Below are positions 24,285 through 44,329 of a stretch of 64,000 nt of DNA, piece after piece. Where the stretch lies: assembly GCA_033581555.1 (NCBI GenBank), contig JAVQSZ010000002.1, positions 70,065 to 134,064 on the forward strand. Direction: 5' to 3'. Each line of letters begins with the position of its first letter. The stretch's first letter is position 1. The notes under the pieces were generated by a model that did not search any database, was not told the DNA's origin, and worked only from the letters and a program-made list of their open reading frames with translations. This DNA comes from Nitrososphaerota archaeon (GTDB taxonomy: Archaea > Thermoproteota > Nitrososphaeria_A > Caldarchaeales > Calditenuaceae). Both the position numbers and the translations under genes were made by a program.

Positions 24285-25181
24285 TCAACGTGTGAAAGTC
24301 TGATGAGATACCTCGTAACGCGAGTACTTGATCATCCCGAGTCCCGCTGTCCTCTCGTCGCCGACGTTGAAGAGTTCCCCCAGCTTGAGAAGCGCATCGG
24401 TGAACCTCATGAAGGTCTCGGACATCAGCGAGTCTGAGGGTATTACGTAGTGGACCCTCCCCAAGAATCCGATGCTCGCCCCACCCCGTTTCAATGAGAC
24501 AGTCTTTATGCCCTTCGGATAGCCAGAGCACGCAACCCCCCCGGCCTTCAGCCACCTCCTGTACGCCTCATTAGGAACTGGCGTCTCGCCGAGGTTGGCA
24601 ACCCAGAAGTTAAGGAGGCTCACCAACAGCCTCTCAGGATCGGGGAACATCACGTTGCGCGGAGGAGCCAGCCACACTCGATCACCGCTTAGGCCCAGCA
24701 GATCGGACACGTCCCTCGGCGGCGCGGTAAACCTTGTGGGTGTGATGAAGCGTACCGCGAATCTGTTCACCGGGACTGACCTCTTCCAGAGCTCTCGAAG
24801 TTCTATCAATCTGAAGTCGATGGCCTCAACTTTGCACTCAGTTCCGTTGAATGAGACCTTGTTGAGCGCCATTATTCCTTTGCTGAGCGCTCCACTGAGT
24901 CGTTCACCGAGAGCAGTTACGTTGAAGTAGAAAATCTTCTCAGGAAGTAAATACCTGTACACGGGCTCCGCAGTTGCTGCATCGATCACCGGCGTGACAG
25001 AGTAGGGCGCCGGCTTATTTGTTGAGTGAATCTCGTCAGCCAAGCTACCGTCAACCGAGGACAATATATTGTAAAATAATCCCTGTACCGCGTATCCACT
25101 GTAATCTGAGAAAGTGATCGGCGCTCTGGTTTTGAACGAGATAGTGAACCTCGCGCACAATTCTTGGGAGTCGTATTTCAT
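24285..25181 (-). CDS. cas6: Cas6-like CRISPR RNA endoribonuclease (last gene of the type I-A cassette)
   Basis: 298 aa. Its position after cas8a and a C-terminal glycine-rich segment (KRGGASIGFLGRVHY) fit the Cas6 G-rich loop. The rest of the assignment rests on operon context. Confidence 0.55.
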   Translation of the reverse strand: MKYDSQELCARFTISFKTRAPITFSDYSGYAVQGLFYNILSSVDGSLADEIHSTNKPAPYSVTPVIDAATAEPVYRYLLPEKIFYFNVTALGERLSGALSKGIMALNKVSFNGTECKVEAIDFRLIELRELWKRSVPVNRFAVRFITPTRFTAPPRDVSDLLGLSGDRVWLAPPRNVMFPDPERLLVSLLNFWVANLGETPVPNEAYRRWLKAGGVACSGYPKGIKTVSLKRGGASIGFLGRVHYVIPSDSLMSETFMRFTDALLKLGELFNVGDERTAGLGMIKYSRYEVSHQTFTR

Positions 25182-26311
25182 ATCGCTCTGCTGAGTTTCC
25201 TTGCGATTCTCAGACTTCTCCTCTGAAGCATGTACAAATTGAAATCCTTGTCGCCTCTGTTAGGAAGTTTGTTCGTGTCCATCAACACCCAACGCATGAA
25301 CTCCCTGTCAACCGTGTATACGAACTCCTCATAAGGCTTGAGACCGTGTATGACCTCATAGAGGAGAACAGAATATCTGATCGCTGCGGCCCTCTCGGAG
25401 CCGCTGTTAGTCGCGTCCAGCGCCACCTCGAGGAGCCCATGGAAGTCGTCCGCCACCCCGTTACCGTCTATGATACCGCATCTTCTCAGCTCTGCGTAGG
25501 TCCGATCGAGTCTCATGGTCATCGAAGTGAAGATCGATGCTGGTGCGCTCCCCCCGGGCTCTCTAATCGCGTATACGGATACGCTCGTCGAGCGCATGAG
25601 GCTCGCCATCAGTAGGTGGAGTGCCGACTCGGGGAAGAGTCCCGCCAAACGTCCCTTTCTCTTACCTACATAAGTGCTTAGGTCCTTGTAGCCGGTTTGA
25701 TGCGAAATAATGCGCTCCGCGTTGATGGTGAAGCCCCTCTCCGTCGAGGACGTCAGCGGGGTCACCACGACCGTAACGTAGTCGTTCACTCCTACCAACG
25801 TCCTGCCTACCGCGCATCCGAGGTAACCGCATAACGCGAGCGCTATCGAAGATAATGGGTATTTTTTGCTTTTAATGAGGCCAGCCGTAGAATAGCCTGG
25901 AACCCTGTTGTGTTCATAGAACTCAGGCTTGAGTATTTCTATCAGTCTAAAATTTTCATTCGAGGACACGACGGAACGCAAATTGTCCTTCACCAGCTTC
26001 AAGAAAGAAAGGGCGTCTATCCCTTCATCTCGCTTTCCGAGTTCTCGCAATATCTCTACCATCACTTTCTTATCGTTCCCACTCATCGGCAGCCTGAGAG
26101 AGACCCCCTTACTCACCGATGCTTGCTTCTCTTCCAGAAGTTGTTCCACTGCTTCTAATGCGTTTTCTAAGGCCTTTACAGGTCTAGGACCGTCTACGAT
26201 TATTTCCGTAGGCGTTACGGTTATTCTGTACGCAGGGTCTAAATGGAACAATAATCCGAGTAGACAATCAGTAGCGAATTTGGGGAGAAGCTTTATTGTA
26301 AGCGTAGGCAC
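25178..26311 (-). CDS. cas8a: Cas8a-like large subunit candidate (Cas8a2/Csa4-type) of type I-A Cascade
   Basis: 377 aa with no clear motif. Assigned from its canonical position between cas3'' and cas6 in I-A cassettes and from its size; overlaps both flanking genes by 4 and 1 nt. Confidence 0.4.
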   Translation of the reverse strand: MPTLTIKLLPKFATDCLLGLLFHLDPAYRITVTPTEIIVDGPRPVKALENALEAVEQLLEEKQASVSKGVSLRLPMSGNDKKVMVEILRELGKRDEGIDALSFLKLVKDNLRSVVSSNENFRLIEILKPEFYEHNRVPGYSTAGLIKSKKYPLSSIALALCGYLGCAVGRTLVGVNDYVTVVVTPLTSSTERGFTINAERIISHQTGYKDLSTYVGKRKGRLAGLFPESALHLLMASLMRSTSVSVYAIREPGGSAPASIFTSMTMRLDRTYAELRRCGIIDGNGVADDFHGLLEVALDATNSGSERAAAIRYSVLLYEVIHGLKPYEEFVYTVDREFMRWVLMDTNKLPNRGDKDFNLYMLQRRSLRIARKLSRAI

Positions 26312-27129
26312 TAAACTTCACCTCCTAATGCGCTCTTCAGCTCCTCGATGAATTGAGTACGACTAGATGTCGATTCGTCGCTCCGCCTGCTCTCGGAAGC
26401 ATCTAGGTTGTCTCCTATCAATATCGGTAAGAGAATCAAAACATACCCCTTCAGCTTCTTTCTCCTGGTAGAATCTTCTTCAAAATTCGATATGCTTTTC
26501 ATCAGCTCTACGACTTCCTCAAAAGATATCTTCTCAGCTAGCGCTTCGTGAACGTGATAGGTCTCTATCCCCGTTCGTCTAGATATGTAATCGGACAAGT
26601 TGGAGAGATATTCTCTCTTGATATATCCACCGGTTTTTATCAAGTGGATAAACTTGTCGCGAATTTCTCTGTGCTCGCCGCTAAGATAAGTCACATCGAA
26701 CGTGAAAGCCTCTTTGAAGTTATCGAAAGTCCTACCCATGGCGTGCAGATGATCCAAAACAGCGAGAACAGTCAAGTGTGTGAGATCGCTCTTCTCTCCT
26801 AAACTGTCAAAAACTCTCTTAAGGTATACAGCTGAAAACACCTCATGTAGGTAGAAGCCAGACGCCCTTCCCTCTATAGGGGTGCAATCGTCTTCGTAAT
26901 TGACTTGGTATGCTTCGATAGCCTTTCCTACGTCATGAAACACGCCGGCGATCATAATACTCTGCTTGATCTCCTCGGGCGAGGTCCCTATACCTAAGAC
27001 TCTGAGGCGTCCCGAAACAGTCTCGTGGTAGCCGTTATCGATTATCTTCTCAACATATTTCAGGACTCCTTCGGTGTGTCGTATCAGCGATTGACCTCTA
27101 TAAGCACACGGCTTGCAGTCGGTCACCAC
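26311..27129 (-). CDS. cas3'': Cas3'' HD nuclease domain protein (split Cas3, type I-A)
   Basis: 272 aa. HD-domain metal motifs H..(GVFHDVGK) and downstream His (DHLHAMG); a standalone HD gene immediately after a DExH helicase gene. Confidence 0.75.
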   Translation of the reverse strand: MVTDCKPCAYRGQSLIRHTEGVLKYVEKIIDNGYHETVSGRLRVLGIGTSPEEIKQSIMIAGVFHDVGKAIEAYQVNYEDDCTPIEGRASGFYLHEVFSAVYLKRVFDSLGEKSDLTHLTVLAVLDHLHAMGRTFDNFKEAFTFDVTYLSGEHREIRDKFIHLIKTGGYIKREYLSNLSDYISRRTGIETYHVHEALAEKISFEEVVELMKSISNFEEDSTRRKKLKGYVLILLPILIGDNLDASESRRSDESTSSRTQFIEELKSALGGEV

Positions 27130-28796
27130 TGCATACCTACCTCCTCATCATAGCCTTCTAAAATTACCGCTGCTATGTTATTCATCACGAATTGCTTCGA
27201 TAGGCAGTCCGCTCTCGATGACAGTCTGATGTCTTTACGCCGCACAATTTCCTTTGACTCGGTGACGAACTCCTTGATCCGCTCGGAGTCGAACAGCCTC
27301 CAAAATTCTTCGTCTCCTATCGTGAATATTAGATTAATTCGCTCCTGAGGGTTCTTTACGAAGGTATCCGCGTATGCTCTGGGAACGACCGGAATCATCT
27401 CTCCCTCACGAACGAACCCACAATAAGCCTCCCACACTTTTACAGCAACCCTTGCAGAGAGGGATGGATAAAAGTCCACCAGCCTCAGCTGATAGAGCAG
27501 GCTCCTGTCTACGAGCCGGGTTTCAACGTAATCGTCATAAACCTCGAGTAGTGCGGTAGACAACTCTCTCATCCCCAGGAGCTTTCGAAGGGTCTTCTCA
27601 ACCAGCTCTTCGGCGTACACACTCTTTCCGCCCTCGCTCAGTGGATATATGAGCACCTTACCAGATCCGCCTTTCCTCGCTACTCTACCGGCCCTCTGAA
27701 TGAGCGAGTCTGGTGGAGCGGCCTCGGTTATCAGAGCGTCGAAGCTCATGTCTACGCCCGCTTCAAAAATCTGTGTGGCTACAACAACGCACGGCCCTCT
27801 CTCTACTTCGGAAAGCCTCCGTCTTCTCTCGGCCTCAATCATCTTCGCGTGAAGTATTACAGGCTTGATCCCTTCCTTCTGCAAGGACCTGTAAATCTCA
27901 ATCGCGTTTCTTACCGTATTGGCGATAACTAATACGCGGCTGAACCTCCTCGCGGCTTCAACTATCTGACTTAATTTATCCTCTTCTCCCACTATTTCTA
28001 CATCGATCTGTCTTTTAACAAATCCAAGATCAGATTGTGAAGGCATTATCTCTTTTATGAGTGAATCCTCTAACACTCTTTCGACCTCTTCTTTTATTTT
28101 GTTTTTAATTAGTTGAGGCATCGTCGCTGTAGATATTATAACGGGAACTCCCATTTCTAGTAAGCCTATTATGCTTGTAATCGCAGAAGTTAACATTTTG
28201 CTTCGCCCATTCACAATAGAATTCGAGCTTACAAAGAGGTGAAATTCATCGAAGACTACTGTCGCGGAGTAAATGCAGCCCCTAGGCACCTCATAGTGAG
28301 CGTAGCCCTTAGTAAAGAGTTTCTTTAATTCTACCGGAGGGATCTTATATAATGAAGAGACGAACGTATCGAGGGTTGTGATGACGAACCTCTTACATAA
28401 CATAGGACTTCCCGGAGAGCTCATCTGTTGAAGGCCTACTTCATCCCCAGCCAGTGGAAGCCCGGTTTCACTCAATCTCCCCACATAATCCCGCATCCTC
28501 TTCAGCATGTGTGTCCCTATCGAGCGCATAGGTAGGACGTGTATCACCCTCTGCCCTAAGTCAGCCCTCCCTTGTTTAATTGCGGCGTAAATGGTGAGAG
28601 AGAGGGTACTCTTGCCGTAGCCCGTTGGGGCCTCAAGAAAGATAAGAGTCCTCGACTCCTCTCTTACCCCCTCTTCAAGGGCTGAGAGGGTCTTTTCTAA
28701 CAAGGGCCTCGCGTCTCCGTTGAAGAGTTTGCGGCTGATGTCCTGATAGACCTCACTCAAAGACTGCGAGCCCATCATCCCCCACCCTGTAAGCAT
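27123..28796 (-). CDS. cas3': Cas3' DExH helicase (split Cas3, type I-A)
   Basis: 557 aa. Walker A EAPTGYGKST, DExH box VVFDEFH, motif VI QRAGRVARKG. The start may be a slightly internal Met, since the ORF overlaps cas5 by 44 nt. Confidence 0.8.
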   Translation of the reverse strand: MLTGWGMMGSQSLSEVYQDISRKLFNGDARPLLEKTLSALEEGVREESRTLIFLEAPTGYGKSTLSLTIYAAIKQGRADLGQRVIHVLPMRSIGTHMLKRMRDYVGRLSETGLPLAGDEVGLQQMSSPGSPMLCKRFVITTLDTFVSSLYKIPPVELKKLFTKGYAHYEVPRGCIYSATVVFDEFHLFVSSNSIVNGRSKMLTSAITSIIGLLEMGVPVIISTATMPQLIKNKIKEEVERVLEDSLIKEIMPSQSDLGFVKRQIDVEIVGEEDKLSQIVEAARRFSRVLVIANTVRNAIEIYRSLQKEGIKPVILHAKMIEAERRRRLSEVERGPCVVVATQIFEAGVDMSFDALITEAAPPDSLIQRAGRVARKGGSGKVLIYPLSEGGKSVYAEELVEKTLRKLLGMRELSTALLEVYDDYVETRLVDRSLLYQLRLVDFYPSLSARVAVKVWEAYCGFVREGEMIPVVPRAYADTFVKNPQERINLIFTIGDEEFWRLFDSERIKEFVTESKEIVRRKDIRLSSRADCLSKQFVMNNIAAVILEGYDEEVGMQW

Positions 28797-29586
28797 CGTG
28801 CCTCTCAGCCAACTTGATCCTCATCCAGCAGCTCGAGACCGGGTCCCTACTGCCCGGGATGATGTATTCTTCCGTCTCAGGCTCACCGACCCATCGGTAG
28901 TCAAGCGCCCAGAAGGACTCCGTATAAACACCTGATAGGGCGTACGGTCCGCCTCCGTATTCTAAGACGTCTTCCACCAGCCTCTTAGGGTGGTAGAAAC
29001 GGGTTCTATACTCCCGTCCGATCATTACGGCCTTCCTGAGGTCTGCCTGCTCGACCGAGACGATGCCCTCTTTTGAGCCGAGAGCTGTAATCGAGTTAGC
29101 CGCCACGAGTAGCTTGTGCTCCCAGTCTTTCCCGAGCTTCTCCTCAGCTAGCTCCTCCTTGACGAGCAGGCCTAACGTTAACAATCCCGAGGGCATGTAG
29201 ATTTTACCCGTGGGAACGACGTTGAACCTGTACAGTGGGTCCCCCCGCCTACTGGGCCTCTGGAACTGCAGGATTTGATATCTCACTATGTCCTCCCAGT
29301 ATTTTCCGACGCGTTTCTCTCCGCCTTCCTCTTCCACGAAGAACGCAGATGCCGAAGCGAAGATGTCCTTATAGAGTTCTGCGCTCGATCCAATCACCGC
29401 CTTCCCCATCTGTGATACGGTGATAAGTTCTCCTGTCTTGCCCATCACGCACAATGGCTTTGATATCGCTCCGATGATCGTTGTTGGTGGGGGAGGTGAG
29501 GAGTAGGCGTGCTGGACTTTCGATACTAGGGGGGTCTTGACGCTGAAACCCCAACATAGTCTGAGATCGATCGTCAAGCTCATCAT
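28753..29586 (-). CDS. cas5: Cas5 (Cas5a, type I-A)
   Basis: 277 aa. N-terminal Cas5 signature ...AYSSPPPPTTIIGAISKPL (PPP[ST]TI[IV]G), glycine-rich loop. Confidence 0.75.
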   Translation of the reverse strand: MMSLTIDLRLCWGFSVKTPLVSKVQHAYSSPPPPTTIIGAISKPLCVMGKTGELITVSQMGKAVIGSSAELYKDIFASASAFFVEEEGGEKRVGKYWEDIVRYQILQFQRPSRRGDPLYRFNVVPTGKIYMPSGLLTLGLLVKEELAEEKLGKDWEHKLLVAANSITALGSKEGIVSVEQADLRKAVMIGREYRTRFYHPKRLVEDVLEYGGGPYALSGVYTESFWALDYRWVGEPETEEYIIPGSRDPVSSCWMRIKLAERHDAYRVGDDGLAVFE

Positions 29587-29596
29587 GGTTGATCTA

Positions 29597-30619
29597 CTAT
29601 TTGCCTTGTGTGACCAGATTCATGATGTCTTCGAAAACGTCCTCGAGCGTTTCGTGTTTTGAGACGCCGGCGGGGACGCTCAACCCCTCTCTATTCACGC
29701 ACCATACTTTGACTTCATGACCTGTTAGCGCCAAGTACTTCTGCGCCCTCTTCCACGTCCTCTCAACGTAGTCGGTGTAGTTCCCTGGAGAGACAGTGAA
29801 GGAGTCACGAGATAGCGCGAGCACGGAAGACCTAAGCTCGATGTTGGGGAAGAACCTCGACCTCTTCCCGCCATAGGAGTTGTTGGTAAGCAGCTTCAGG
29901 AGCGCGATCAGAGCGGCCTTTCTCCTATTGGGGATCGAATTGCTTAGTTCTTGTTTTTTCTTCTCCAATTCATCGCGCGCTCCCTTTGGAGTTTCCCCGA
30001 AAACGTTAGATGGTACGCCGATTCCTGCTAAGTCGAGGTTTAGGTTAAGCGTGTATACAGAAGAGGCTATCTCGACGTTATACGGGATCTGACCGAGTTT
30101 GGCGTCTTTCCCAGCCTGCGAGAACAGGTAGCGAACGTGAAACTCAGCCTCCATCGCGGTGGCGTTAAGCACGTCCTGGATAGCTGGGATCATGTATCCG
30201 ACCTGAAAGCGGGATGTTCGTTTAACTGGGATATCACCAGTGTAAAGGAACCCGCCTACGTCGGCTACAATGTCTTTCAATAGAACGTCTATTTCGAACC
30301 TCATGATGTCCTCGTGGCTCTTCGGCGGCTTGACACCCTCTTCCGTAAGATAGCTGTCCTCAGAGAACTTGATGAACTCGTTTCTGGATGAGAATACGCC
30401 TACAGGCAATTTCATAGATTTCGCTACGTCGACTAACAGAGCCTGATATCCGTGGGCTATTGATTCTCCGGAGACTGCTGGCACGTATTTCAGGGTGTAG
30501 CCGTCGTGCTGTGGGATCACCATCGGTACAGTTCGATGCCTCGACAGGTTGCCGACGGTCTCGACCGAGTTGAGGGCCTCGACGTTCATCAAGCACCTCA
30601 AGGATATGCTGAGGAACAC
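29597..30619 (-). CDS. cas7: Cas7 (Csa2) backbone subunit, type I-A
   Basis: 340 aa. N-terminal MNVEALNSVETVGNLSRHR and overall RAMP pattern typical of Csa2. Confidence 0.75.
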   Translation of the reverse strand: MFLSISLRCLMNVEALNSVETVGNLSRHRTVPMVIPQHDGYTLKYVPAVSGESIAHGYQALLVDVAKSMKLPVGVFSSRNEFIKFSEDSYLTEEGVKPPKSHEDIMRFEIDVLLKDIVADVGGFLYTGDIPVKRTSRFQVGYMIPAIQDVLNATAMEAEFHVRYLFSQAGKDAKLGQIPYNVEIASSVYTLNLNLDLAGIGVPSNVFGETPKGARDELEKKKQELSNSIPNRRKAALIALLKLLTNNSYGGKRSRFFPNIELRSSVLALSRDSFTVSPGNYTDYVERTWKRAQKYLALTGHEVKVWCVNREGLSVPAGVSKHETLEDVFEDIMNLVTQGK

Positions 30620-30620
30620 C

Positions 30621-31067
30621 TCACTTCACCTCGCCCTGTTGAGCCGAAGGGGCTCTCAATCTCGACTCCACCAGTATCGCCGAGGCATACGCACCGATCT
30701 TCCTGGCAAGCGATGTATCGCTCTGAACCTTATCGATGAATTCCCTAACCATCTCGCTGCTGGGGAGGTGTCCCACGATCTGAAAGACACCGATTTCGTC
30801 CTGCACCTCGACGACCCGATACTCCCGCCCAGTGGTCGTTGTCTTAGTGCCAACCCTAAGTCTCCGTTCACTCTCGGATCGCGCTAGCTCGCTGTCTACG
30901 AGCCTCAGCGAGTCCCGTATAGTTCGAACCGCGGGCTCGGGGTTTAGCGCGTTAGCCATCCTGTCGATCATCGAGGGCGAACCGCTCAGAGCAGCAGCTG
31001 TAGCCAGGAGGACAGCGATCGGTCTGAACCCTTCTAGATCATGTTGAGGAGACTTACTCCCTGTCAT
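30621..31067 (-). CDS. csa5: Csa5 (Cas11 small subunit, type I-A)
   Basis: ORF track 30621..31130. The first 21 codons lie in AT-rich promoter-like DNA and would overlap csa3. The internal Met at 31067 gives a 148 aa alpha-helical protein, typical Csa5 size, immediately upstream of cas7. Confidence 0.6.
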   Translation of the reverse strand: MTGSKSPQHDLEGFRPIAVLLATAAALSGSPSMIDRMANALNPEPAVRTIRDSLRLVDSELARSESERRLRVGTKTTTTGREYRVVEVQDEIGVFQIVGHLPSSEMVREFIDKVQSDTSLARKIGAYASAILVESRLRAPSAQQGEVK

Positions 31068-31119
31068 GCGAGCCAAAAATATACAAGATGGTATATAAGA
31101 TTTATTCACCCGGAAAGGA
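31068..31119. promoter_or_regulatory. Divergent csa5/csa3 promoter region with a shared symmetric TATATA element
   Basis: AT-rich 52 nt spacer gagccaaaaatatacaagatggtatataagatttattcacccggaaaggA. TATATAAG at 31093-31100 lies 20-27 nt upstream of the csa3 ATG (31120). On the other strand it lies about 26-31 nt upstream of the csa5 ATG (31067). Both spacings suit leaderless archaeal transcripts. Confidence 0.4.
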
Positions 31120-31839
31120 ATGCATTCCATCTACTTGAAACAGATAAAAGCCTTATTACGGCTTAGTGAAACCATAGAGTCGATGATTTTAGCGGTCACG
31201 CTGGGCTTCGACGAGAAGTTCGCGGTCAGGGCCGTCATTCGGCACTCACACTCACGGCTGACCCGCATCGTGGTGATAACGCCTGCGCTTAGGGCGGATG
31301 AACGCACGGAGGCGGCGATTGGATCTCTGAGGGAGTTCCTGAGGAGATACCTCCAGATCGAGGACGTCGAGAGGGTTGAGGTGAGCGTGGACGACTGTTT
31401 CGACGCCGTCGGCGAACTCGTTGGAATGTTCGACTCGTGGGCAGGAGACGCCGTGACCCTCAACTTAAGCGGCGGAATGAGGCTCCTCGTGATCGAGTGT
31501 CTGATCGGCGCGCTGATGAGCAGGACACTTATGACCATCGAACTGGAGAGCGAAGACGGTTCGGCTTACTTTAGTTTCGGGAACGATTACTTCGATCCAG
31601 CCGTTTTCAACGAAATCGACCATATAGACAAACTGATTCTGAAATATCTAACTAACAAATGTTCCGCGTCTTCGTTGTCGAAGTTGTTGGATCTCCCCAA
31701 GTCTTCTGCTTGGAGGAGGGTAAGGAAACTTGAGAGGCTCGGGCTCGTCGAGGTGGAAAGGGTGGGCAGGTCTCTTGCGGTGAGGCCTACCGACAAAGGA
31801 AGAGTGCTGAGAAGCATCATGCGCGACCTACACCGCTAA
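31120..31839 (+). CDS. csa3: Csa3: CARF-domain + winged-HTH CRISPR-associated transcriptional regulator
   Basis: 239 aa. N-terminal Rossmann-like CARF (ILAVTLGFDEKFAVRAV, VVITPA, VTLNLSGGMRLLVIECL). C-terminal wHTH (LILKYLTNK...LSKLLDLPKSSAWRRVRKLERLGLVE). The alternative start at Met22 is 31183. Confidence 0.7.
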   Translation: MHSIYLKQIKALLRLSETIESMILAVTLGFDEKFAVRAVIRHSHSRLTRIVVITPALRADERTEAAIGSLREFLRRYLQIEDVERVEVSVDDCFDAVGELVGMFDSWAGDAVTLNLSGGMRLLVIECLIGALMSRTLMTIELESEDGSAYFSFGNDYFDPAVFNEIDHIDKLILKYLTNKCSASSLSKLLDLPKSSAWRRVRKLERLGLVEVERVGRSLAVRPTDKGRVLRSIMRDLHR

Positions 31840-31866
31840 CGCTTAGAGTTGAAGCCGAGCCCCCGC

Positions 31867-32286
31867 TCAATCGAGTTTCTGGACGACGTCGTGAACGATG
31901 ACGTTGGTCTTGTCGCCGATGCGCGTTATAGTGGCCTTAGCGATGAAGGCACTCCCGCGTTTGATCAGACCCACAGGGCCGTAGTAGTTAGTGGATTCGA
32001 GCCTTGCCATGAACCGGTCGTTGACCTTTACCACCGCGAACCCCTTGTAAACACGCTCCACCTCGACCTTTAGGAGCCTCCCTCCAGCGAACCTCGACCT
32101 CACCGCGGACGATGCGACGTACCTGCCCCTCACTTTCACCACCCTCCTCGACCTCATTAAGCCCCTGAGGACTGACCGGGCCCTAGAGGGCTCGAGTTCG
32201 AGCTCCTGCGCGACGTCCTCCAGCGTCATCCCTGCCCTGCCTGCGGTCAGGAGAAGCATGTACACCTCCTTCGTAAGGGAGGTCAT
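31867..32286 (-). CDS. Hypothetical protein: N-terminal winged-helix + C-terminal beta-rich domain
   Basis: 139 aa. MarR-like wHTH (VYMLLLTAGRAGMTLEDVAQELELEPSRARSVLRGLMRS). The C-terminal ~70 aa is predicted beta-rich (LLKVEVERVYKGFAVVKVNDRF...). Lower-GC codon usage like the cas genes. Confidence 0.45.
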   Translation of the reverse strand: MTSLTKEVYMLLLTAGRAGMTLEDVAQELELEPSRARSVLRGLMRSRRVVKVRGRYVASSAVRSRFAGGRLLKVEVERVYKGFAVVKVNDRFMARLESTNYYGPVGLIKRGSAFIAKATITRIGDKTNVIVHDVVQKLD

Positions 32287-32415
32287 CTCTCAACAAGTGG
32301 ACTAGTCGTTAAAATAGGTCTACTTCGTCCGGATTTACCGAATGCAACTTTAGAAGACGTATGGAATGTTTTACTATATCCTTACTGGAATAATATGTCT
32401 CAACATATAAGCCAT

Positions 32416-33315
32416 CTACTTTTTTAGGACTACGGAACTTTTTCCATCCCTGTGCTCAGGAGTATCATTGATCAGAACACGGTAGCCACGACGGGATGTC
32501 GTCTGTACTGGTAATTTGTCTTTATCCAACCGTTTAGTTTCAAGCAACCACTCTGCACATCTGGTCAATATATCTTTCCACACTCTAATTTCATACTCCT
32601 TACCGTCAGGGAATCTTATCGACTTGTAACGTAACGGTTCTCCTTTCTTGGGTTTAAGTTCACTTAGCGGTAGACCTTTCCTGTCACGATAAGGAGGCGC
32701 AATTACGGTAGGAGGAGGACTGCCTATGCCGGCGTACCTCATTATCGAAAAGGCGTTCCTGATGACTTCGCCCGGCTCCATCTTCCTTATGTCCCATTCT
32801 GCGATCTTCTTTTCATGCAGAGGCTTCTGCACTTGGGTGTCATAGACCTCCCACTTCGCCCCATCGGTCGCGATGAAGTATCTCACTCCCTCCGACACGC
32901 AGTATGACACCTGCTGAATCAAGTCCTCCTCCTTCCCCAGGCTCTTAGCACCTATGAACGCGATCCTCTGGCCGTTCAGCAGAAGCGCGTAGTCAGGTCT
33001 TCCGGCCTGAGTGGAGACTTCGGGTATGACGAGGTTCGGGTCTTCGGTGTCCCAACCTAGCGCCCTCAGGAAGGGGTCGATGAGCACGTACCTTGTCAGG
33101 GTCTCGCTTTTCTGTAACATGTCACGGTGACTTTCGATTTTCATTCTAAGCTGCCTGACGAGATCAACGAGTCCTTCAAGCGCCACAATCCTAATTTTAA
33201 AATCATAAATATATACTTTATGGGAAATAATTTGTAGGACCGACTGTCGATGTGCGAAACCTAAGTTTACGCTCCTCAATTGAGGCTGCTTTACCGCTAC
33301 GCGACCCTCCAACAT
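32416..33315 (-). CDS. HsdR_N-like (type I restriction enzyme R N-terminal / Mrr-like PD-(D/E)xK) domain protein with uncharacterised C-terminal domain
   Basis: HsdR_N pattern SETLTRYVLIDPFLRALGW...GRPDYALLL...IAFIGAKSLGKEE...GVRYFIATDGAKWEVYD. The C-terminal ~110 aa is K/R-rich and unknown. Start uncertain: Met1 at 33315 would overlap the hef 3' end by ~100 nt; the internal Met at 33144 gives 243 aa. Low-GC island codon usage. Confidence 0.5.
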   Translation of the reverse strand: MLEGRVAVKQPQLRSVNLGFAHRQSVLQIISHKVYIYDFKIRIVALEGLVDLVRQLRMKIESHRDMLQKSETLTRYVLIDPFLRALGWDTEDPNLVIPEVSTQAGRPDYALLLNGQRIAFIGAKSLGKEEDLIQQVSYCVSEGVRYFIATDGAKWEVYDTQVQKPLHEKKIAEWDIRKMEPGEVIRNAFSIMRYAGIGSPPPTVIAPPYRDRKGLPLSELKPKKGEPLRYKSIRFPDGKEYEIRVWKDILTRCAEWLLETKRLDKDKLPVQTTSRRGYRVLINDTPEHRDGKSSVVLKK

Positions 33316-34897
33316 TGGTCCACGGCCAAGGATGACCCACCACGGGTTCAGGCCCCCTTCGCGGAACCAGAACTCCCGGCAAGTCCCTCGAGGCGAGCTT
33401 CAGGACCCTCTCGACCCGCCGGGCCCTCCTATACCCCTCCCTGAAGTAGTACTCGTCTATCGTCCCCTTGGTCACCAGAATAACGACCCTGCCGGGTAAC
33501 CTCCTCCCCGTCCTACCCCTCCTCTGGATGTACCTGATCCCGGACACGGTCGGCTCGTAGAAGACGACCAGCCCACACTCGGGGACGTCGAGCCCCTCCT
33601 CACCGATAGACGTGGCCACCAATACGCTGAACTTCCCCGCCCTGAACTCCTTCAGGATCCTGACCTGCTCGTCCTGGGTCATCCTCGGGCCCGACTTGCC
33701 CTCCGCCTTCCCCACGAAGAGGTGGGCTCTGATACCCCTAGAGCTCATCCTCTCGACGAGGAGCTCAGCCGTAGACCTGAGGTTGGCGAAGACCAGGACC
33801 CTGTCGCCAGGGTTGGAGGAGAGGTGTTCGCTCAGGACCCTGAGGAGGACCTCGACCTTCGGGTGCTCGGCCTCGCATCCCTTCACGAGCTCCACCAGCT
33901 CGCGGAAGTCTGGGCTCGATGACAGGACCCTGTGGCTCCTGCGCCTAGACCTCCTCACCTCGTCGAGGTATCTGAGGAGGAGTGAAGCGTGCTGACTCTC
34001 CACGAGCTCCAGGGCGTAGAAGAGGCTGAGGACTTCGGAGAGGACTACGAGGGAGTGGGCGACCAACCCCCTCGCACCGGACCCGAGCTCCGCCTTCAGC
34101 CGCTCCATCACCGCGAGCAGCGACCTCCGGTTGAACTCGATCCCCTCGAGGGCGACGTAACCCGTTGACCGGAGCCTCTCAAGCCTCGACTCGATCATCT
34201 CCTTGATCTTCGACCTGATTCTTTCGTACTGCTCGGGGAGGGAGACGGTGACCCAGCTGACGTCGGTGCCGGGCACGTAAGCCTTCACGTCCTCGTCCTC
34301 CTCGGTCCTCCATTCGATCCTCTCTATCCAGAGGTTCCTGACCAGCTCCTTCACCCTCTCGGGGTCCGAACCTGGAGAGGCTGTGAGCGCGAGGATCAGG
34401 GGCCATGGGCAGGCCTTGACGTACTCGTTCGCGATCCGCGTGTACGCGTAACGCTCCCTGGACCTGTGGCACTCGTCCATCACGACGACCGCGAACTCCT
34501 CGAGGTTCACGAGGCCCCTGGAGATGTCGTTCCAGACCGTCTGGGGCGTGGCGAGGACTAGCCTTACGCTCGGGTCGAGCCAATACCGTTCCCTGTCGGG
34601 GACGTCGCCGGTCAGCGCCGCGACCTCCCTCCTCTCGAGCCTCAGGTGGGCGAGGACGCTGGAGGTGTGCTGTAGGACGAGGGGCTTGGTCGGGGCCATG
34701 ACTAGGGCCCTGCACCCGGGATACCTGTGGAGGACCTCCGCGACGACGAGCTCCGCGATTACGGTCTTCCCGAGCGCGGTCGGGAGGACGACCAGCGTGT
34801 TGCCCCTCAGCGCGGCCTCCGCGATCCTGACCTGGTACTCGCGCCTCAGCAGGGTCCTCTCCCTCACCATCGGGTGCTCGATGAACTGGACCTCCAT
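33218..34897 (-). CDS. hef: Hef/FANCM-like superfamily 2 helicase (no nuclease domain)
   Basis: 559 aa. Motif I VVLPTALGKT, II MDECHRS, III LTASPG, V ATSIGEEGLDVP, VI QRRGRTGRR. The last ~40 codons run into AT-rich island-boundary DNA; see findings. Confidence 0.75.
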   Translation of the reverse strand: MEVQFIEHPMVRERTLLRREYQVRIAEAALRGNTLVVLPTALGKTVIAELVVAEVLHRYPGCRALVMAPTKPLVLQHTSSVLAHLRLERREVAALTGDVPDRERYWLDPSVRLVLATPQTVWNDISRGLVNLEEFAVVVMDECHRSRERYAYTRIANEYVKACPWPLILALTASPGSDPERVKELVRNLWIERIEWRTEEDEDVKAYVPGTDVSWVTVSLPEQYERIRSKIKEMIESRLERLRSTGYVALEGIEFNRRSLLAVMERLKAELGSGARGLVAHSLVVLSEVLSLFYALELVESQHASLLLRYLDEVRRSRRRSHRVLSSSPDFRELVELVKGCEAEHPKVEVLLRVLSEHLSSNPGDRVLVFANLRSTAELLVERMSSRGIRAHLFVGKAEGKSGPRMTQDEQVRILKEFRAGKFSVLVATSIGEEGLDVPECGLVVFYEPTVSGIRYIQRRGRTGRRLPGRVVILVTKGTIDEYYFREGYRRARRVERVLKLASRDLPGVLVPRRGPEPVVGHPWPWTNVGGSRSGKAASIEERKLRFRTSTVGPTNYFP

Positions 34898-35018
34898 CCC
34901 TTAGGACGCGGCCGGCTCCGCCTAATTTGCCATCGCGTGCTCGACCGTTCTAGTGCCCAACAGACCGAGGACTTAACGCGGCAGACCTTTTTACCAGTCC
35001 GAGTCCGGAACGTTTGGG

Positions 35019-35402
35019 ATGAAGCGGGTCTCGCCGAGGGCGCTGAGGAGGATGCAGGAGAGGCTCCTGTCGTCGTCGGGGATATCGATGAACGAGCTTG
35101 GCGAGGCGAGGGTCCTGATCGAGCTGGGTGAAAGGAGGATAAGGCTCGAGGGCGTGACGGTCGTCGAGCTCGAGGGCCCGATGGGGAAGGTCTACCAGCT
35201 GGTGGGGGGTAGAGAGGTCGAGGAGGTAGCGGTGAGCGAGGAGGTTCAGGCTACGGCCGCGAGCGTTCCGGAGGTCAGCGATGAGGACGTAGCCCTGGTG
35301 GCCGCACAAGCGGGGGTCTCTGAGGAGGAGGCGAGGAGGGCCCTGATCGAGGCCGGAGGCGACCTCGCGAGGGCCATACTCTCGCTCAGGTCCAGGAAGT
35401 AG
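35019..35402 (+). CDS. nac: Nascent polypeptide-associated complex protein (NAC alpha homologue) with C-terminal UBA-like domain
   Basis: 127 aa. N-terminal PRALRRMQERL...MNELGEARVLIELGERRI; C-terminal EEEARRALIEAGGDLARAI (UBA). Confidence 0.8.
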   Translation: MKRVSPRALRRMQERLLSSSGISMNELGEARVLIELGERRIRLEGVTVVELEGPMGKVYQLVGGREVEEVAVSEEVQATAASVPEVSDEDVALVAAQAGVSEEEARRALIEAGGDLARAILSLRSRK

Positions 35403-35403
35403 T

Positions 35404-35808
35404 TCAGAGGCCGACGTAGTGCAGCTTCACGTGCTCCCTCATCAGCTCCCCGTAGGGCGTGGCATAGCCACAGTGGGGACAGACGTGAAGACCAGGGTCG
35501 GCCGGACCTGCCGTGCTCAGCGCGAGCCTGACCTCTTCAGGGTTGAGCACGACCACCCTCAGCCTCTCGCCGTCGGACTCCACCTTGCAGTGCTCCGAGA
35601 CGCTCAACTCCCCTAGGGCGTCCCGAACGAGGCCGAGGAGGGCGGCCTGGCTCGGCCTCGACCAGCTGACCGAGAGGTCTATCGCGACCGACCCCTCCCT
35701 GGGGACCGCGATCCCGCCCAACTCAACAAGGCGCTCGGTGAGCCTCGCCGCGAGGGGGACCTCGAGCCCCCTGAAGCCCACGACGACGACGTAGACGACG
35801 TCCCTCAA
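35404..35808 (-). CDS. Hypothetical protein with C-terminal C2H2-type zinc-finger-like motif
   Basis: 134 aa; C-terminal CPHCGYATPYGELMREHVKLH (C-x2-C...H-x4-H). No other recognisable motif. Confidence 0.35.
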   Translation of the reverse strand: MRDVVYVVVVGFRGLEVPLAARLTERLVELGGIAVPREGSVAIDLSVSWSRPSQAALLGLVRDALGELSVSEHCKVESDGERLRVVVLNPEEVRLALSTAGPADPGLHVCPHCGYATPYGELMREHVKLHYVGL

Positions 35809-36359
35809 GTCCCGGTCACCCGCGGAGCTGAAGTCTTCATTTGGGAGAAGATCACCCTCAGCCTTTCGACGCCGCCGATGCTCCTGATGTACTCCGCGAC
35901 CTCGGGCTGGACGTAGTCCTCCCAGGGCCCTCCCTCGACCATCAGCCTCCTGATCTCGGTCCCGTTGAACCTCTCCCTCTCGAAGAGCTGGGGCTCCCTC
36001 ACCCTGATCCCCGAGGACTCCGCCAACAGCTTTACGAAGGGGTTGTTGGTGTAGAGCGCCTCGAACTTGGGCACCGTGGCTACCACCCTGCTGATCCAGA
36101 GATGGTGCTCTCCGATGTCCGGCACCGGGACCGGAATCACCCTCGAGAGGTCGTGTCCCGCGCTCTTCAGGCCTATGCGGATCATCTCGATCCTCTCACC
36201 CGCGGTGAAGGGGTTGTCGGGCGTGTAGCTGAACTGGGAGCTCCCTATAGCGACTATGAGCTCGTCGTTCTCCGATAGTGCTTGTTCAGCGGCCCTGAGG
36301 TGTCCGAGGTGAAACGGCTGGAACCTCCCGACCAGCAGCCCCCGCTTCGGTATCGCCAA
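35805..36359 (-). CDS. nadM: Nicotinamide-nucleotide adenylyltransferase, archaeal type
   Basis: 184 aa. VGRFQPFHLGHL (HxGH nucleotidyltransferase motif in the archaeal NMNAT context), later ISRV. Confidence 0.85.
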   Translation of the reverse strand: MAIPKRGLLVGRFQPFHLGHLRAAEQALSENDELIVAIGSSQFSYTPDNPFTAGERIEMIRIGLKSAGHDLSRVIPVPVPDIGEHHLWISRVVATVPKFEALYTNNPFVKLLAESSGIRVREPQLFERERFNGTEIRRLMVEGGPWEDYVQPEVAEYIRSIGGVERLRVIFSQMKTSAPRVTGT

Positions 36360-36469
36360 CCCGTGCCGTCGTAGCGGCGACTCTCTAATTAACGGAACAC
36401 CGGTCCTTCCTTCGACCGATCCGGGACCACAAAACTATTAACGCCCCCCAAATCGCGTGCTAGAGGCGC

Positions 36470-36889
36470 ATGTCGACCACTTACGAGGTGCCCAGCGGGC
36501 TGAGCTACTCTAGGAACCACGAGTGGGTCAGGCAGAAGGGCAAGTACGCGGTGATCGGGGTCACGGACTACGTCCAGAAGAAGCTGCGGGAGATACTCTA
36601 CGTGGAGCTCCCGAACATCAACACCAAGCTCACCAGAGGCCAGCACCTCGCGACGATCGAGTCGGTCGGGGGGAGCCACGAGGTGAGGGCCCCGGTCAGC
36701 GGGAAGATAGTTGAGGTGAACGCGAGGCTCATCGACAGCCCCGAGCTGATCAACGAGTACCCCTACGAGGACGGTTGGATCTGCAGGATGGAGGTCTCGG
36801 ACCCGACGGAGCTAGAGGACCTGATGCAGCCCGACGAGTACACTAGATACATCGAGGAGCTTGAGCTGGAGGCTAGCGAGACCGAGTGA
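36470..36889 (+). CDS. gcvH: Glycine cleavage system H protein family member lacking the canonical lipoyl-lysine
   Basis: 139 aa. Classic GcvH pattern (YSRNHEWVR..., AVIGVTDYVQKKL, DPYEDGWI). The lipoylation motif is ESVGGSHEV instead of ESVKA, with Gly in place of the Lys. Confidence 0.7.
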   Translation: MSTTYEVPSGLSYSRNHEWVRQKGKYAVIGVTDYVQKKLREILYVELPNINTKLTRGQHLATIESVGGSHEVRAPVSGKIVEVNARLIDSPELINEYPYEDGWICRMEVSDPTELEDLMQPDEYTRYIEELELEASETE

Positions 36890-36904
36890 GCGCCGTTCAC
36901 TCTC

Positions 36905-37885
36905 TCACGCCGTTAAAGCAGAGATCACCCTCAGCGGCGTCCTCATTATCGAGACGAAGCCCTCGAGCTTGATGCCCCTCGCGATCCCGAAGAGCTCCTC
37001 CACCTCTCCTGGAGTCAGAGGCACGTCGGCGGAGTGCGCGTTGAGCTCGGCCTGTTGGGGCGTCTTCACGCCCGCGATCGCGACGACCTTGTCCCTCTCC
37101 ACGAGGGCCCTCAGCGCGATCTGTGAGACCTCGCACCCGTACTTCCTCGCCAGCTCCCTCATCCTCTCCAGCAACGGCTCGACCCTGCGGAGGTTGGTCC
37201 CGTCGAAGAGCCTGTTGATGCTCCTCACTAGGTCCCTGGGCCTGTTGACGGCCGAGTACTTCCCCGTCAGGAGGCCCTGCGCCAGGGGACTGTAGGCGAG
37301 GACCGTCACCCTCTCGCCGAAGGCCCTGAAGTTGCTCTCCGCCGCTCCCCTCTCCAATAAATTGTACTTCACCTGGTTCGAGACGATCTCCGCAGACCTC
37401 AGGTGCTCCTGGGCCTTTGCGAGCAGTCGCGGTGGGAAGTTGCTGACGCCGACGTACCTGATCTTCCCCTCCCTCAACAGCCTGTCCATCGCCCTCATCG
37501 TCGACGATATCGGGACGAACGGGTTCGGCCAGTGGACCTGATAGAGGTCTATGACGTCCACCCCGAGCCTCTTCAGGCTCCGCTCGCAGGCCTTGATCGT
37601 CCCGTCGTAGGTGGCATGGGTCGGCCAGACCTTCGTCGCTATGAGGACCGAGTCCCTCATCCCCTTGATCGCCCTCCCGACCACCTCCTCTGACCTTCCG
37701 CCGCCGTAGATCTCCGCGGTGTCGATCAGGTTGACCCCGAGCTCGATCGACCTCCTTATGGCCTGGATCACCTCCTCCTCTCCGTAGCCCCTCCCCCAGC
37801 CCCACTCCCTGCTCCCGATCTGCCAAGTCCCGACGGCGATCACCGAGACCCTCTCGGACGACCTCCCGAGAGTCGTGTACCTCAC
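36905..37885 (-). CDS. Aldo/keto reductase
   Basis: ORF track 36905..38356. The first 157 codons are R/G-rich low complexity overlapping the upstream membrane-protein gene. The conserved AKR N-terminus VRYTTLGRSSERVSVIAVGTWQIG starts at a GTG at 37885. Later IDTAEIYGGG and GVSNF. Confidence 0.8.
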   Translation of the reverse strand: MRYTTLGRSSERVSVIAVGTWQIGSREWGWGRGYGEEEVIQAIRRSIELGVNLIDTAEIYGGGRSEEVVGRAIKGMRDSVLIATKVWPTHATYDGTIKACERSLKRLGVDVIDLYQVHWPNPFVPISSTMRAMDRLLREGKIRYVGVSNFPPRLLAKAQEHLRSAEIVSNQVKYNLLERGAAESNFRAFGERVTVLAYSPLAQGLLTGKYSAVNRPRDLVRSINRLFDGTNLRRVEPLLERMRELARKYGCEVSQIALRALVERDKVVAIAGVKTPQQAELNAHSADVPLTPGEVEELFGIARGIKLEGFVSIMRTPLRVISALTA

Positions 37886-38229: not shown

Positions 38230-38258
38230 CGGAAGGATGCTCCTCGCCCTCAACCCGG

Positions 38259-40799: not shown

Positions 40800-40847
40800 C
40801 GAATACGGGAGGAGCGTTCTTGGAAATAAAGGGGATTGATTGGTGCC

Positions 40848-41447: not shown

Positions 41448-41504
41448 TTCCGTTGATTATTAACTGTTTAGCAAAAACGCGTTCGACTATGAGGGTTAAC
41501 ACCG

Positions 41505-41843: not shown

Positions 41844-41982
41844 GTTATAACACGTAGGTAGTGATTATTAAATCGTTCAGCCGAGCGACTACACGGAGCG
41901 GCCTTACCCGTTTGGGTCAGATCTCCCTCGATCGCACAGTCACGATCGATGGACACCGGTGTGGCCGTCACGCATCCTGCGG

Positions 41983-43056: not shown

Positions 43057-43057
43057 C

Positions 43058-44260: not shown

Positions 44261-44329
44261 TCCGACTGACGTGGTCCTCGCCGCTATTAGGGGATCCCCT
44301 TTATCAATGGGGCGGGCAGAGGGTGCGCG

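What the first reader, a model, noticed from the sequence alone, without database searches (positions are those of the whole stretch)
32416..33315. Uncharacterised HsdR_N-like PD-(D/E)xK domain protein with a novel basic C-terminal domain, riding on the cas island
The N-terminal ~160 aa follow the type I restriction enzyme R-subunit N-terminal (Mrr-like nuclease) pattern: LIDPFL..LGW, GRPDYALL, then FIGAKSLGKE, then YFIATDGAKWEVYD. The usual (D/E)xK glutamate appears as Gly (IGAK), so catalytic competence is unclear. The C-terminal ~110 aa is K/R-rich with no recognisable motif. The gene lies in the lower-GC island directly beside csa3 and the interference cassette. It is a candidate accessory nuclease or sensor of the defence locus, not a standard cas gene.
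Basis: partly seen in the sequence, partly recalled or inferred. Interest (0 to 1): 0.65.

Follow-up and report, generated by a model that had tools for sequence, protein, structure and literature searches.

The report
Frameshifted solitary restriction-type nuclease gene
This is a broken copy of a widespread stand-alone DNA-cutting enzyme gene that landed as a 1-kb piece of foreign DNA next to the CRISPR genes; it is a neighbour of that locus, not a working part of it.

Summary
The ORF is real and its N-terminal half is a genuine HsdR_N-type PD-(D/E)xK nuclease domain. Evidence: Pfam HSDR_N at 31.1 bits (cut-off 25.1), a profile hit to HsdR structure 3h1t, and Foldseek hits to DrdV, BpuSI and EcoR124I.

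Both ends of the reported ORF are wrong. Translation starts at GTG 33186, not ATG 33315. The 3' end is cut by a 1-nt deletion in an A-run (32439-32443). The -1 frame continues for 43 conserved codons to a stop at 32309-32311.

Homologues show that the 'motif-less basic tail' is a conserved ~120-aa domain. It matched 2,584 clusters (E<=1e-3) in a library of 50%-identity cluster representatives. It is absent from Pfam, NCBIfam and PDB.

The Glu-to-Gly change in ExK is shared by half the family. It covaries with a Glu six residues after the Lys (49/49 against 2/41), which fits a Cfr10I-type relocated active-site residue.

The CRISPR link fails. No homologue locus examined has cas genes or a CRISPR array (about 90 loci, checked in three ways and to different depths). 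A sister strain carries the same cas island (96% identity) without this gene. The gene lies on a 1,030-bp, 47%-GC cassette (32287-33316) that replaces 197 bp.

Best reading: a decaying, horizontally acquired, methylase-less (type IV-like) restriction nuclease.

The parts
32287..33316 (-). 1,030-bp low-GC cassette carrying the nuclease gene. It is present in the window and in L095, and absent from sister contig L014, where 197 bp stand in its place.
   Evidence: Alignment A4 and blastn. Identity to L014 is 99.3% down to 33317 and resumes at 96% exactly at 32286. Cassette GC is 47.3%, against 64.4% for the helicase core and 57% for L014's 197 bp.
33206..33215 (-). TATA-like element (TATATATTTA) centred about 24 nt upstream of the GTG start. 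It could serve as an archaeal promoter for a leaderless mRNA.
   Evidence: Read directly from the sequence. The promoter function is an inference and has not been tested.
33187..33315 (-). The first 43 codons of the reported ORF, which are not part of the protein. In another frame, 33218..33316 encodes the replaced C-terminal tail of the upstream helicase.
   Evidence: Homologue N-termini align at ORF residue 44. The exact 256-aa product starting at this GTG is what NCBI annotates. Helicase ORF.
32737..33186 (-). HsdR_N-type PD-(D/E)xK nuclease domain, residues 1-150 counted from GTG 33186. Key residues: E28, E56, D65, G79-x-K81, E87, Q91xxxY95.
   Evidence: Pfam HSDR_N 31.1 bits. Profile hit to 3h1t, E=1.8e-5. 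AF2 pLDDT 94. Foldseek hits to DrdV, HsdR and BpuSI. Residue conservation and covariation.
32677..32736 (-). Proline-rich linker, residues 151-170. It varies in length among homologues.
   Evidence: pLDDT dips to 59 here. The alignment is gappy in this stretch.
32440..32676 (-). First two thirds of the conserved C-terminal domain (residues 171-249), in the original reading frame.
   Evidence: Alignments A2 and A3. AF2 model of the domain, pLDDT 96.6.
32439..32443 (-). Frameshift site: an A5 run where A6 would keep the frame.
   Evidence: The same A5 is present in an independent assembly, L095, which differs from the window by 10 SNPs over 11.5 kb.
32416..32418 (-). Premature TAG stop of the shifted reading. 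It ends the annotated 256-aa product.
32309..32440 (-). Last third of the C-terminal domain, in the -1 frame: 43 codons plus TAA. It is still open and still conserved.
   Evidence: Identity to homologues is 0.42-0.63 after the shift and 0.41-0.49 before it within the same domain.

Best explanation
The gene encodes a solitary, methylase-less restriction-type endonuclease of the HsdR_N / COG2810 kind ('predicted type IV restriction endonuclease'). It has two modules.

1. An N-terminal PD-(D/E)xK nuclease head. I infer that Mg2+-dependent DNA cleavage uses D65, K81 and a Glu (E87) relocated from the beta-strand to the start of the next helix. E28, E56 and the QxxxY motif would assist.

2. A basic ~120-aa C-terminal domain. 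I infer that this is the DNA- or target-recognition module, because close relatives of the same nuclease head carry RAMA, Mrr_N winged-helix or DUF4357 domains at that position.

The gene arrived in this lineage as a 1,030-bp lower-GC single-gene cassette. The cassette replaced 197 bp between a housekeeping SF2 helicase gene and a small wHTH gene at the edge of the cas island.

In this genome a 1-nt deletion in an A-run removes the last 43 residues of the recognition domain. The copy is therefore most likely inactive, or at best a nuclease head without proper targeting: a recently pseudogenised defence-type gene. Its position beside csa3 and the type I-A cassette is defence-island-style clustering, not a functional partnership.

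Shown: the domain identity, gene boundaries, frameshift, cassette indel, residue covariation and lack of cas linkage. Inferred: DNA cleavage, the recognition role of the C-terminal domain, restriction of modified or foreign DNA, and loss of function.
For: Nuclease head:
- Pfam HSDR_N above cut-off.
- Profile hit to Vibrio HsdR 3h1t, E=1.8e-5.
- AF2 pLDDT 94.3.
- Foldseek hits to DrdV, 3h1t, BpuSI, EcoR124I HsdR and Hjc.
- D65, K81 and Y95 are invariant; E28 and E56 are conserved in 89/90 sequences.

Active site: G79 pairs with E87 in 49/49 sequences, whereas E79 sequences have E87 in only 2/41. Migration of Glu to the adjacent helix, giving PD-XXK-E, is documented for Cfr10I (PMC3424549).

Modular C-terminus:
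- RAMA in P0044 and P0049, Mrr_N in P0074 and DUF4357 in P0102 occupy the same slot.
- The domain is basic (pI 9.6; family median 9.7).
- It occurs in 1-4 copies, almost always behind HSDR_N.

Solitary status: there is no recurrent neighbour. 424 neighbours fall into 271 clusters, and the largest cluster covers 8 of 76 loci. Only one neighbour is a methyltransferase.

Patchy, mobile behaviour:
- 309 loci among 185,579 species.
- Presence/absence between strains that are 99.3% identical in the flanks.
- One homologue sits between a DpnII R-M system and Gabija.
- One lies on the Thermomicrobium roseum megaplasmid.

Foreign origin: cassette GC is 47% against 64% for the helicase core, with a sharp break at 33316.

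Frameshift. It is identical in a second assembly.
Against: - No member of this two-domain family has been characterised, as far as I could find, so cleavage and any modification dependence are untested.
- Several close homologues sit in conserved housekeeping synteny, for example NifU - gene - EamA - ABC transporter in two Caldarchaeum MAGs. That fits a vertically inherited cellular nuclease as well as a defence gene.
- The post-frameshift segment shows no decay. The shift is therefore either very recent or bypassed at some level.
- I could not inspect model coordinates, so I could not check that E87 points into the active site.
- Foldseek E-values for the nuclease head are modest (about 1e-3).
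Confidence: 0.65

Rival explanations
1. It is a CRISPR-Cas accessory nuclease or sensor working with csa3 and the type I-A interference cassette.
For: The gene lies two genes from csa3, at the edge of the low-GC cas island.
Against: - None of the roughly 90 homologue loci examined has cas genes or a CRISPR array.
- The sister strain carries the same cas island at 96% identity without the gene.
- No CARF, SAVED or other signalling domain is present.
- This copy is frameshifted.
Confidence: 0.03
2. It is a housekeeping DNA repair or recombination nuclease, vertically inherited in most carriers, and not a defence gene. The copy in this window is a stray, decaying paralogue.
For: - Neighbours are overwhelmingly metabolic or housekeeping genes.
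- Synteny is conserved within Caldarchaeum and within Binatia (CN_hydrolase upstream in 8 loci).
- Hjc resolvase and RecU appear among the weaker fold hits.
Against: - The distribution is very patchy: 309 loci among 185,579 species.
- The gene is present or absent between near-identical strains.
- Sister proteins carry RAMA or Mrr_N, domains typical of restriction enzymes.
- Best matches are to restriction-enzyme nuclease heads.
- One locus lies inside an R-M/Gabija island.
Confidence: 0.17
3. The frameshift is bypassed by -1 ribosomal or transcriptional slippage on the A-run, so the full-length 292-aa enzyme is still made and the gene is functional here.
For: - tRNA-Lys can re-pair perfectly one base back (GGA AAA A -> A AAA), and the -1 frame gives exactly the conserved continuation.
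- The downstream 43 codons are open and as conserved as the rest of the domain.
- The same frameshift is kept in two strains.
Against: - The site is not a canonical X XXY YYZ heptamer.
- There is no stimulatory RNA structure downstream (z = 0.14).
- All homologues are encoded in a single frame.
- An A5 run is short for transcriptional slippage.
- The two strains differ by only 10 SNPs over 11.5 kb, so shared ancestry explains the shared frameshift.
Confidence: 0.08
4. It is a selfish free-standing (homing-type) endonuclease gene that promotes its own insertion.
For: It forms a single-gene 1-kb cassette that precisely replaces 197 bp and differs between near-identical strains. A PD-(D/E)xK homing endonuclease (I-Bth0305I) is a weak fold hit.
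Against: - No terminal repeats, intron or intein context, and no second copy in the window.
- Homologues keep stable synteny in several lineages.
- DNA similarity to other loci is confined to the coding region.
Confidence: 0.05

Closest known systems
Nuclease domain of type I restriction R subunits (HsdR; Pfam HSDR_N PF04313; structures 3h1t and EcoR124I 2w00)
   Same: The same PD-(D/E)xK head, including the N-terminal E..tR...IdP.L..LGW helix, the PD motif, the xK strand and the QxxxY motif.
   Different: There is no SF2 motor domain and no HsdM/HsdS partner genes. The protein is only 292 aa. In this subfamily the ExK Glu is replaced by Gly, with a Glu in the following helix.
Nuclease heads of type IIG/IIL enzymes of the MmeI family (DrdV 7lo5/7lvv, BpuSI 3s1s; Pfam MmeI_N)
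   Same: These are the best structural matches of the whole model (E about 1.5e-3, prob 1.00). There is also a weak MmeI_N Pfam hit.
   Different: Those enzymes are ~1,000-aa fusions with a methyltransferase and a target-recognition domain. This protein has neither.
Mrr-type and other type IV (modification-dependent) restriction endonucleases; COG2810 'predicted type IV restriction endonuclease'
   Same: A nuclease plus a separate reader/DNA-binding domain, with no cognate methylase. JGI names homologue P0021 this way. A sister protein, P0074, carries the Mrr_N winged helix.
   Different: Domain order is reversed relative to Mrr (nuclease first). Modification dependence is untested.
Cfr10I / NgoMIV / Bse634I-type active sites (PD...xxK...E)
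   Same: The acidic residue of (D/E)xK is missing from the strand and appears to be supplied from the neighbouring helix. In this family G79 and E87 covary almost perfectly (PMC3424549).
   Different: These are unrelated type II enzymes. The resemblance concerns active-site architecture only, and here it rests on covariation, not on a solved structure.
phrog_32890 (phage protein family of unknown function)
   Same: 34 of 51 C-terminal domains match part of this profile, best E = 2.5e-12.
   Different: Only about 70 of the 189 profile positions are matched. The PHROG has no assigned function, and I did not examine its members.

Membership tests
HSDR_N-type PD-(D/E)xK nuclease domain (Pfam PF04313) | A significant match to the family profile, above the curated cut-off | tested here: met
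   31.1 bits against a cut-off of 25.1, E=2.7e-7. Most homologues carry a precomputed PF04313 hit.
HSDR_N-type PD-(D/E)xK nuclease domain (Pfam PF04313) | Restriction-endonuclease-like fold matching solved HsdR or MmeI-family heads | tested here: met
   AF2 pLDDT 94.3. Foldseek hits to DrdV, 3h1t, BpuSI and EcoR124I with prob 0.75-1.00 but E of only ~1e-3 to 3e-2. Profile hit to 3h1t, E=1.8e-5.
HSDR_N-type PD-(D/E)xK nuclease domain (Pfam PF04313) | Catalytic triad D...(D/E)xK | tested here: inconclusive
   D65 and K81 are invariant. The middle acid is Gly in this protein and in 49/90 relatives. A covarying E87 (49/49) probably substitutes. I could not check the geometry in the model, and there is no biochemistry.
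Type I restriction-modification R subunit (HsdR) | SF2 translocase domains (ResIII/Helicase_C) in the same polypeptide | tested here: not met
   The protein is 292 aa and HSDR_N is its only known domain. The adjacent helicase is a separate gene that is also present in the strain lacking the nuclease.
Type I restriction-modification R subunit (HsdR) | Adjacent hsdM and hsdS genes | tested here: not met
   Nothing of the kind flanks the gene in the window. Only 1 of 139 immediate neighbours of homologues is a methyltransferase.
Type IV (modification-dependent) restriction endonuclease | A nuclease with a separate DNA-reader domain and no cognate methyltransferase | tested here: inconclusive
The architecture and lack of a methylase fit.
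Type IV (modification-dependent) restriction endonuclease | Cleavage only of modified DNA | not testable with these tools
   This needs enzyme assays on modified and unmodified substrates.
CRISPR-Cas accessory / associated gene | Recurrent co-localisation with cas genes or CRISPR arrays across genomes | tested here: not met
   No cas genes in six homologue look-ups with Pfam-annotated neighbours. No Cas model among the 25 PADLOC families listed (of 41 matched) for the neighbours of 76 loci. No true array in 80 loci. A sister strain has the cas island without the gene.
CRISPR-Cas accessory / associated gene | A signalling or Cas-interaction domain (CARF, SAVED, etc.) | tested here: not met
   No such Pfam, NCBIfam or PADLOC hit.

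The most novel reading that the evidence does not exclude
The ~120-aa C-terminal module may be an undescribed nucleic-acid reader domain, possibly a new fold. It matched 2,584 clusters (E<=1e-3) in a library of 50%-identity cluster representatives, occurs in 1-4 tandem copies, is almost always tethered to an HsdR_N nuclease head, and has no Pfam, NCBIfam, PDB or BFVD match. It could define a large, uncharacterised class of solitary restriction enzymes in Chloroflexota, Binatia, Latescibacterota and hot-spring archaea, with a new recognition specificity such as a DNA modification.
Probability: 0.3. Interest if true: 0.55.

Novelty: new member of a known kind. Interest (0 to 1): 0.27.

Why it matters
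For this window the result is mainly corrective.
- The gene is not part of the CRISPR-Cas system.
- Its ORF boundaries were wrong at both ends.
- It is a frameshifted, horizontally acquired single-gene cassette, an example of defence-island turnover between near-identical strains.

The more useful by-product concerns the family. Its C-terminal domain is widespread, folds confidently and has no entry in the domain or structure libraries searched. The family also shows a very clean G79/E87 covariation that documents active-site residue migration within a single family. A cultured carrier, Thermomicrobium roseum (WP_012642919.1), makes the biochemistry testable.

Tried and rejected
- Programmed frameshifting. 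I folded the 79 nt after the slip site and found no structure beyond shuffled controls (z = 0.14). I kept this as a low-probability rival.

- Split HsdR (upstream SF2 helicase plus this nuclease). Rejected. The helicase is conserved, with housekeeping synteny, in the strain that lacks the nuclease. No helicase family appears among the 25 Pfam families listed (of 91 matched) for the homologues' neighbours.

- Toxin-antitoxin or regulator pairing with the downstream 139-aa wHTH gene. Rejected. The wHTH gene is present next to csa3 in the strain without the nuclease.

- Donor identification. DNA similarity of the cassette to the fetched loci is limited to the nuclease-coding part (at most 76%). 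The flanks match nothing.

- Fold identification of the C-terminal domain.
  - Foldseek against PDB gave best E = 0.065 and TM < 0.3.
  - Foldseek against BFVD gave best E = 0.2.
  - Profile searches against PDB sequences, Pfam and NCBIfam found nothing.

- CRISPR-like k-mer repeats in six homologue loci. These turned out to be plain tandem repeats without spacers.

- Literature searches for COG2810 and PF04313 found no study of this two-domain family.

- The PADLOC hits of the protein itself (PDC-M54B, REase_MTase_IIG) cover only the generic nuclease-head motif.

Full report
OBSERVATION

Pfam HSDR_N matches above its curated cut-off (E=2.7e-7, 31.1 bits against 25.1). NCBIfam gives only a faint echo of a type I endonuclease model.

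- a type I-A cassette on the minus strand, running cas6 ... cas3'' (HD), cas3', cas7/csa2, csa5, across 24285..31130;
- csa3 at 31120..31839 on the plus strand;
- a 139-aa wHTH gene at 31867..32286 on the minus strand;
- the target gene;
- an SF2 helicase at 33218..34897 on the minus strand.

The island has lower GC (45-55%) than the ~65% of the rest of the window.

GENE BOUNDARIES

A database search found 105 homologues, the best at 62% identity, from Candidatus Caldarchaeum MAGs. All of them align to the ORF only from residue 44 onward.

Residue 44 is a GTG at 33186..33184. A TATA-like TATATATTTA lies at 33215..33206, about 24 nt upstream, and directly follows the helicase stop codon. The exact 256-aa product that starts at this GTG is what NCBI annotates in two MAG assemblies, as MCS7126765.1 and MDW8042942.1 (Ca. 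Calditenuaceae / Nitrososphaerota). The first 43 codons of the reported ORF are therefore an artefact of reading back into the helicase gene.

At the other end, every homologue continues about 43 residues beyond the window's stop. The window has GGAAAAAGTTCC, with five A's at 32439..32443. One more A, or a -1 shift, gives GKKFRSPKKVDGLYVETYYSSKDIVKHSIRLLKLHSVNPDEVDLF* ending at TAA 32311..32309. That continuation matches the family consensus.

An independent assembly, L095 (GCA_025058175.1), is 99.91% identical to the window over 11.5 kb, with 10 mismatches and no gaps. It carries the same A5 run. The frameshift is therefore real in this lineage and not a random assembly error.

The 43 post-shift codons are as similar to homologues (0.42-0.63) as the pre-shift part of the same domain (0.41-0.49). 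This means the lesion is either recent or bypassed. The RNA downstream of the slip site folds no better than shuffled sequence (z = 0.14), and the site is not a canonical slippery heptamer. I therefore rate recoding as unlikely.

THE PROTEIN

I repaired the sequence to 292 aa, aligned it with 89 homologues (A2) and modelled it.
- AlphaFold2 gives pLDDT 94.3 and two domains joined by a Pro-rich linker.
- The whole model matches the nuclease heads of DrdV (7lo5/7lvv, E about 1.5e-3, prob 1.00), Vibrio HsdR (3h1t), BpuSI and EcoR124I HsdR, and more weakly Hjc.
- The family profile hits the 3h1t sequence at E=1.8e-5.

Conserved residues, counted from the GTG:

| Residue | Conservation across 90 sequences |
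|---|---|
| E28 | 89/90 |
| R32 | invariant |
| E56 | 89/90 |
| D65 | invariant |
| K81 | invariant |
| Q91 | 73/90 |
| Y95 | invariant |
| D108 | 81/90 |
| G109 | invariant |
| W112 | 89/90 |

Q91xxxY95 corresponds to the QxxxY motif that I recall, from my own knowledge of the EcoR124I literature, as typical of RecB-family and HsdR nucleases.

The Gly in 'IGAK' (G79) is not a private defect. 49 of 90 family members have Gly there and 41 have Glu. All 49 Gly sequences have Glu at position 87, just before the next helix. Only 2 of the 41 Glu sequences do. This near-perfect reciprocal pattern is what one expects if the catalytic acid has moved from the strand to the adjacent helix. That variant, PD-XXK-E, is documented for Cfr10I (PMC3424549). 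I could not open the model coordinates to verify the geometry.

THE C-TERMINAL DOMAIN

Modelled on its own (A3, 51 sequences), the domain gives pLDDT 96.6 and pTM 0.90, with an alpha+beta arrangement. It has conserved positions (FPDG, W203, L207, W213-L214, P226, P243, H245, G248, F251, E263) and is basic (pI 9.6; family median 9.7).

It has no match in:
- Pfam;
- NCBIfam;
- PDB sequences;
- PDB structures by Foldseek (best E = 0.065, TM < 0.3);
- BFVD.

Thirty-four of 51 members match part of phrog_32890, a phage family of unknown function.

An exhaustive profile search found 2,584 cluster representatives at E<=1e-3, of which 1,429 were at E<=1e-10. Sampling 20 of these showed:
- a single copy behind HSDR_N in proteins of about 300-400 aa;
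- two to four tandem copies behind HSDR_N in proteins of 450-800 aa;
- stand-alone copies;
- one case with two copies behind an SF2 helicase, P0161.

Proteins whose nuclease heads are 47-51% identical to the window's carry other domains in the same slot: RAMA (P0044, P0049), Mrr_N winged helix (P0074) or DUF4357 (P0102). From this I infer that the C-terminal slot holds an exchangeable DNA/target-reader module, as in type IV and type IIG restriction enzymes.

IS IT LINKED TO CAS?

No.

1. Six homologue look-ups with precomputed neighbour annotation (11 places in all) show no cas genes. Most neighbours are housekeeping genes. P0001 and P0009 lie between NifU and EamA/ABC-transporter genes. P0005, P0021 and P0065 are also in metabolic or translation contexts. 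P0039 lies between a DpnII R-M system and Gabija (GajA/GajB), next to an IS.

2. A scan of one genome per species found 309 loci. These are mostly in Dehalococcoidia/Chloroflexota, Binatia and Latescibacterota, plus hot-spring archaea.

3. For 76 of the best 80 loci, the 424 nearest ORFs fall into 271 similarity clusters. The largest cluster is present at only 8 loci.

4. The commonest Pfam families among the immediate neighbours are CN_hydrolase, luciferase-like monooxygenase, metallophosphoesterase, NifU, DHDPS and NUDIX.

5. PADLOC models hit essentially one methyltransferase and a few singletons. No Cas model appears among the 25 families listed, of 41 that matched.

6. Repeated k-mers in six loci proved to be plain tandem repeats without spacers.

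7. Most directly, sister contig L014 (Logan SRR7039830) is 99.3% identical to the window over 11.6 kb down to position 33317. It is 96.05% identical over 3.6 kb from 32286 to 28722, a stretch that covers the wHTH gene, csa3, csa5, cas7 and the next gene. It lacks the nuclease gene: its helicase is followed after 83 bp by the wHTH gene. The cas island therefore exists without this gene.

THE CASSETTE

The window segment 32287..33316 (1,030 bp, GC 47.3%) replaces 197 bp of L014 (GC 57%). GC falls from 0.67 to 0.46 exactly at 33316.

The replacement also removed the helicase's last ~33 codons. The helicase now reads into cassette DNA for a different 32-residue tail.

The cassette has no terminal repeats and no second copy in the window. 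Its non-coding flanks match none of the fetched loci.

I read this as horizontal acquisition of a single-gene cassette from a lower-GC donor. The closest proteins are from Caldarchaeum. The cassette landed at the border of a variable region.

MECHANISM AND VERDICT

The most likely reading (confidence about 0.65) is a solitary, methylase-less restriction-type endonuclease of the HsdR_N/COG2810 kind. Its basic C-terminal reader would tether a PD...xK...E nuclease head to its DNA target. In this genome the enzyme is disabled by loss of the last third of the reader domain: the two strands at residues 254-263, the helix at 268-281 and the terminal strand in the model.

It is not an HsdR subunit, because it has no motor domain and no HsdM/S partners. 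It fails the test for a cas-associated gene.

Rival readings are:
- a housekeeping repair nuclease (0.17);
- frameshift bypass (0.08);
- a selfish homing-type gene (0.05);
- a cas accessory gene (0.03).

NOVELTY

Noticed in passing
window 33218-33316 (minus strand), compared with L014 11584-11700: Insertion of the cassette replaced the last ~33 codons of the upstream SF2 helicase. The helicase now ends in a different 32-residue tail encoded by foreign low-GC DNA (559 aa here, 565 aa in the strain without the cassette).
   Followed up: partly
window 1-64000; cas cassette 24285-31130: A complete-looking type I-A cas cassette plus csa3 is present. Neither Tandem Repeats Finder nor a k-mer scan finds any CRISPR array anywhere in the 64-kb window.
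   Followed up: partly
window 28722-32286 compared with 33317-44890, against L014: Between the two strains the cas-island side is 96.05% identical, while the housekeeping side is 99.3% identical. The cas region is therefore diverging or recombining faster than its flank. The GCA_025058175.1 contig (L095) also ends inside csa3, at about window position 31687, which may reflect strain heterogeneity there.
   Followed up: no
window 25178-26311 and 28753-29586 (minus strand): Two ORFs inside the type I-A cassette (377 aa and 277 aa) have no Pfam hit at E<=1e-3. By position they are presumably cas8a and cas5a, but I did not check this.
   Followed up: no
window 31867-32286 (minus strand): A 139-aa protein with only a sub-threshold TrmB-like wHTH hit (19.6 bits) sits between the nuclease cassette and csa3. 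It is conserved next to csa3 in the strain that lacks the nuclease. It may be a regulator linked to csa3.
   Followed up: partly
P0161 (859 aa), P0123, P0131, P0143: The undescribed C-terminal domain also occurs as 2-4 tandem copies behind HSDR_N. In P0161 it occurs as two copies behind an SF2 helicase (ResIII + Helicase_C) with Cys-rich zinc-ribbon-like segments, which suggests a wider toolkit built around this reader module.
   Followed up: partly
L040 5093-5510, L054 5546-5760, L067 17555-17840: Chloroflexota and Dehalococcoidia loci carry arrays of near-identical 67-71-bp tandem repeats with internal palindromes (for example GGTAGCGCAGGTTTGTAACCTGCG). There are no variable spacers, so they are not CRISPR arrays.
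   Followed up: no
L061 9860-11491 and 11587-12597: One Dehalococcoidia genome has two family members in tandem. The first is a longer protein of about 540 aa.
   Followed up: no
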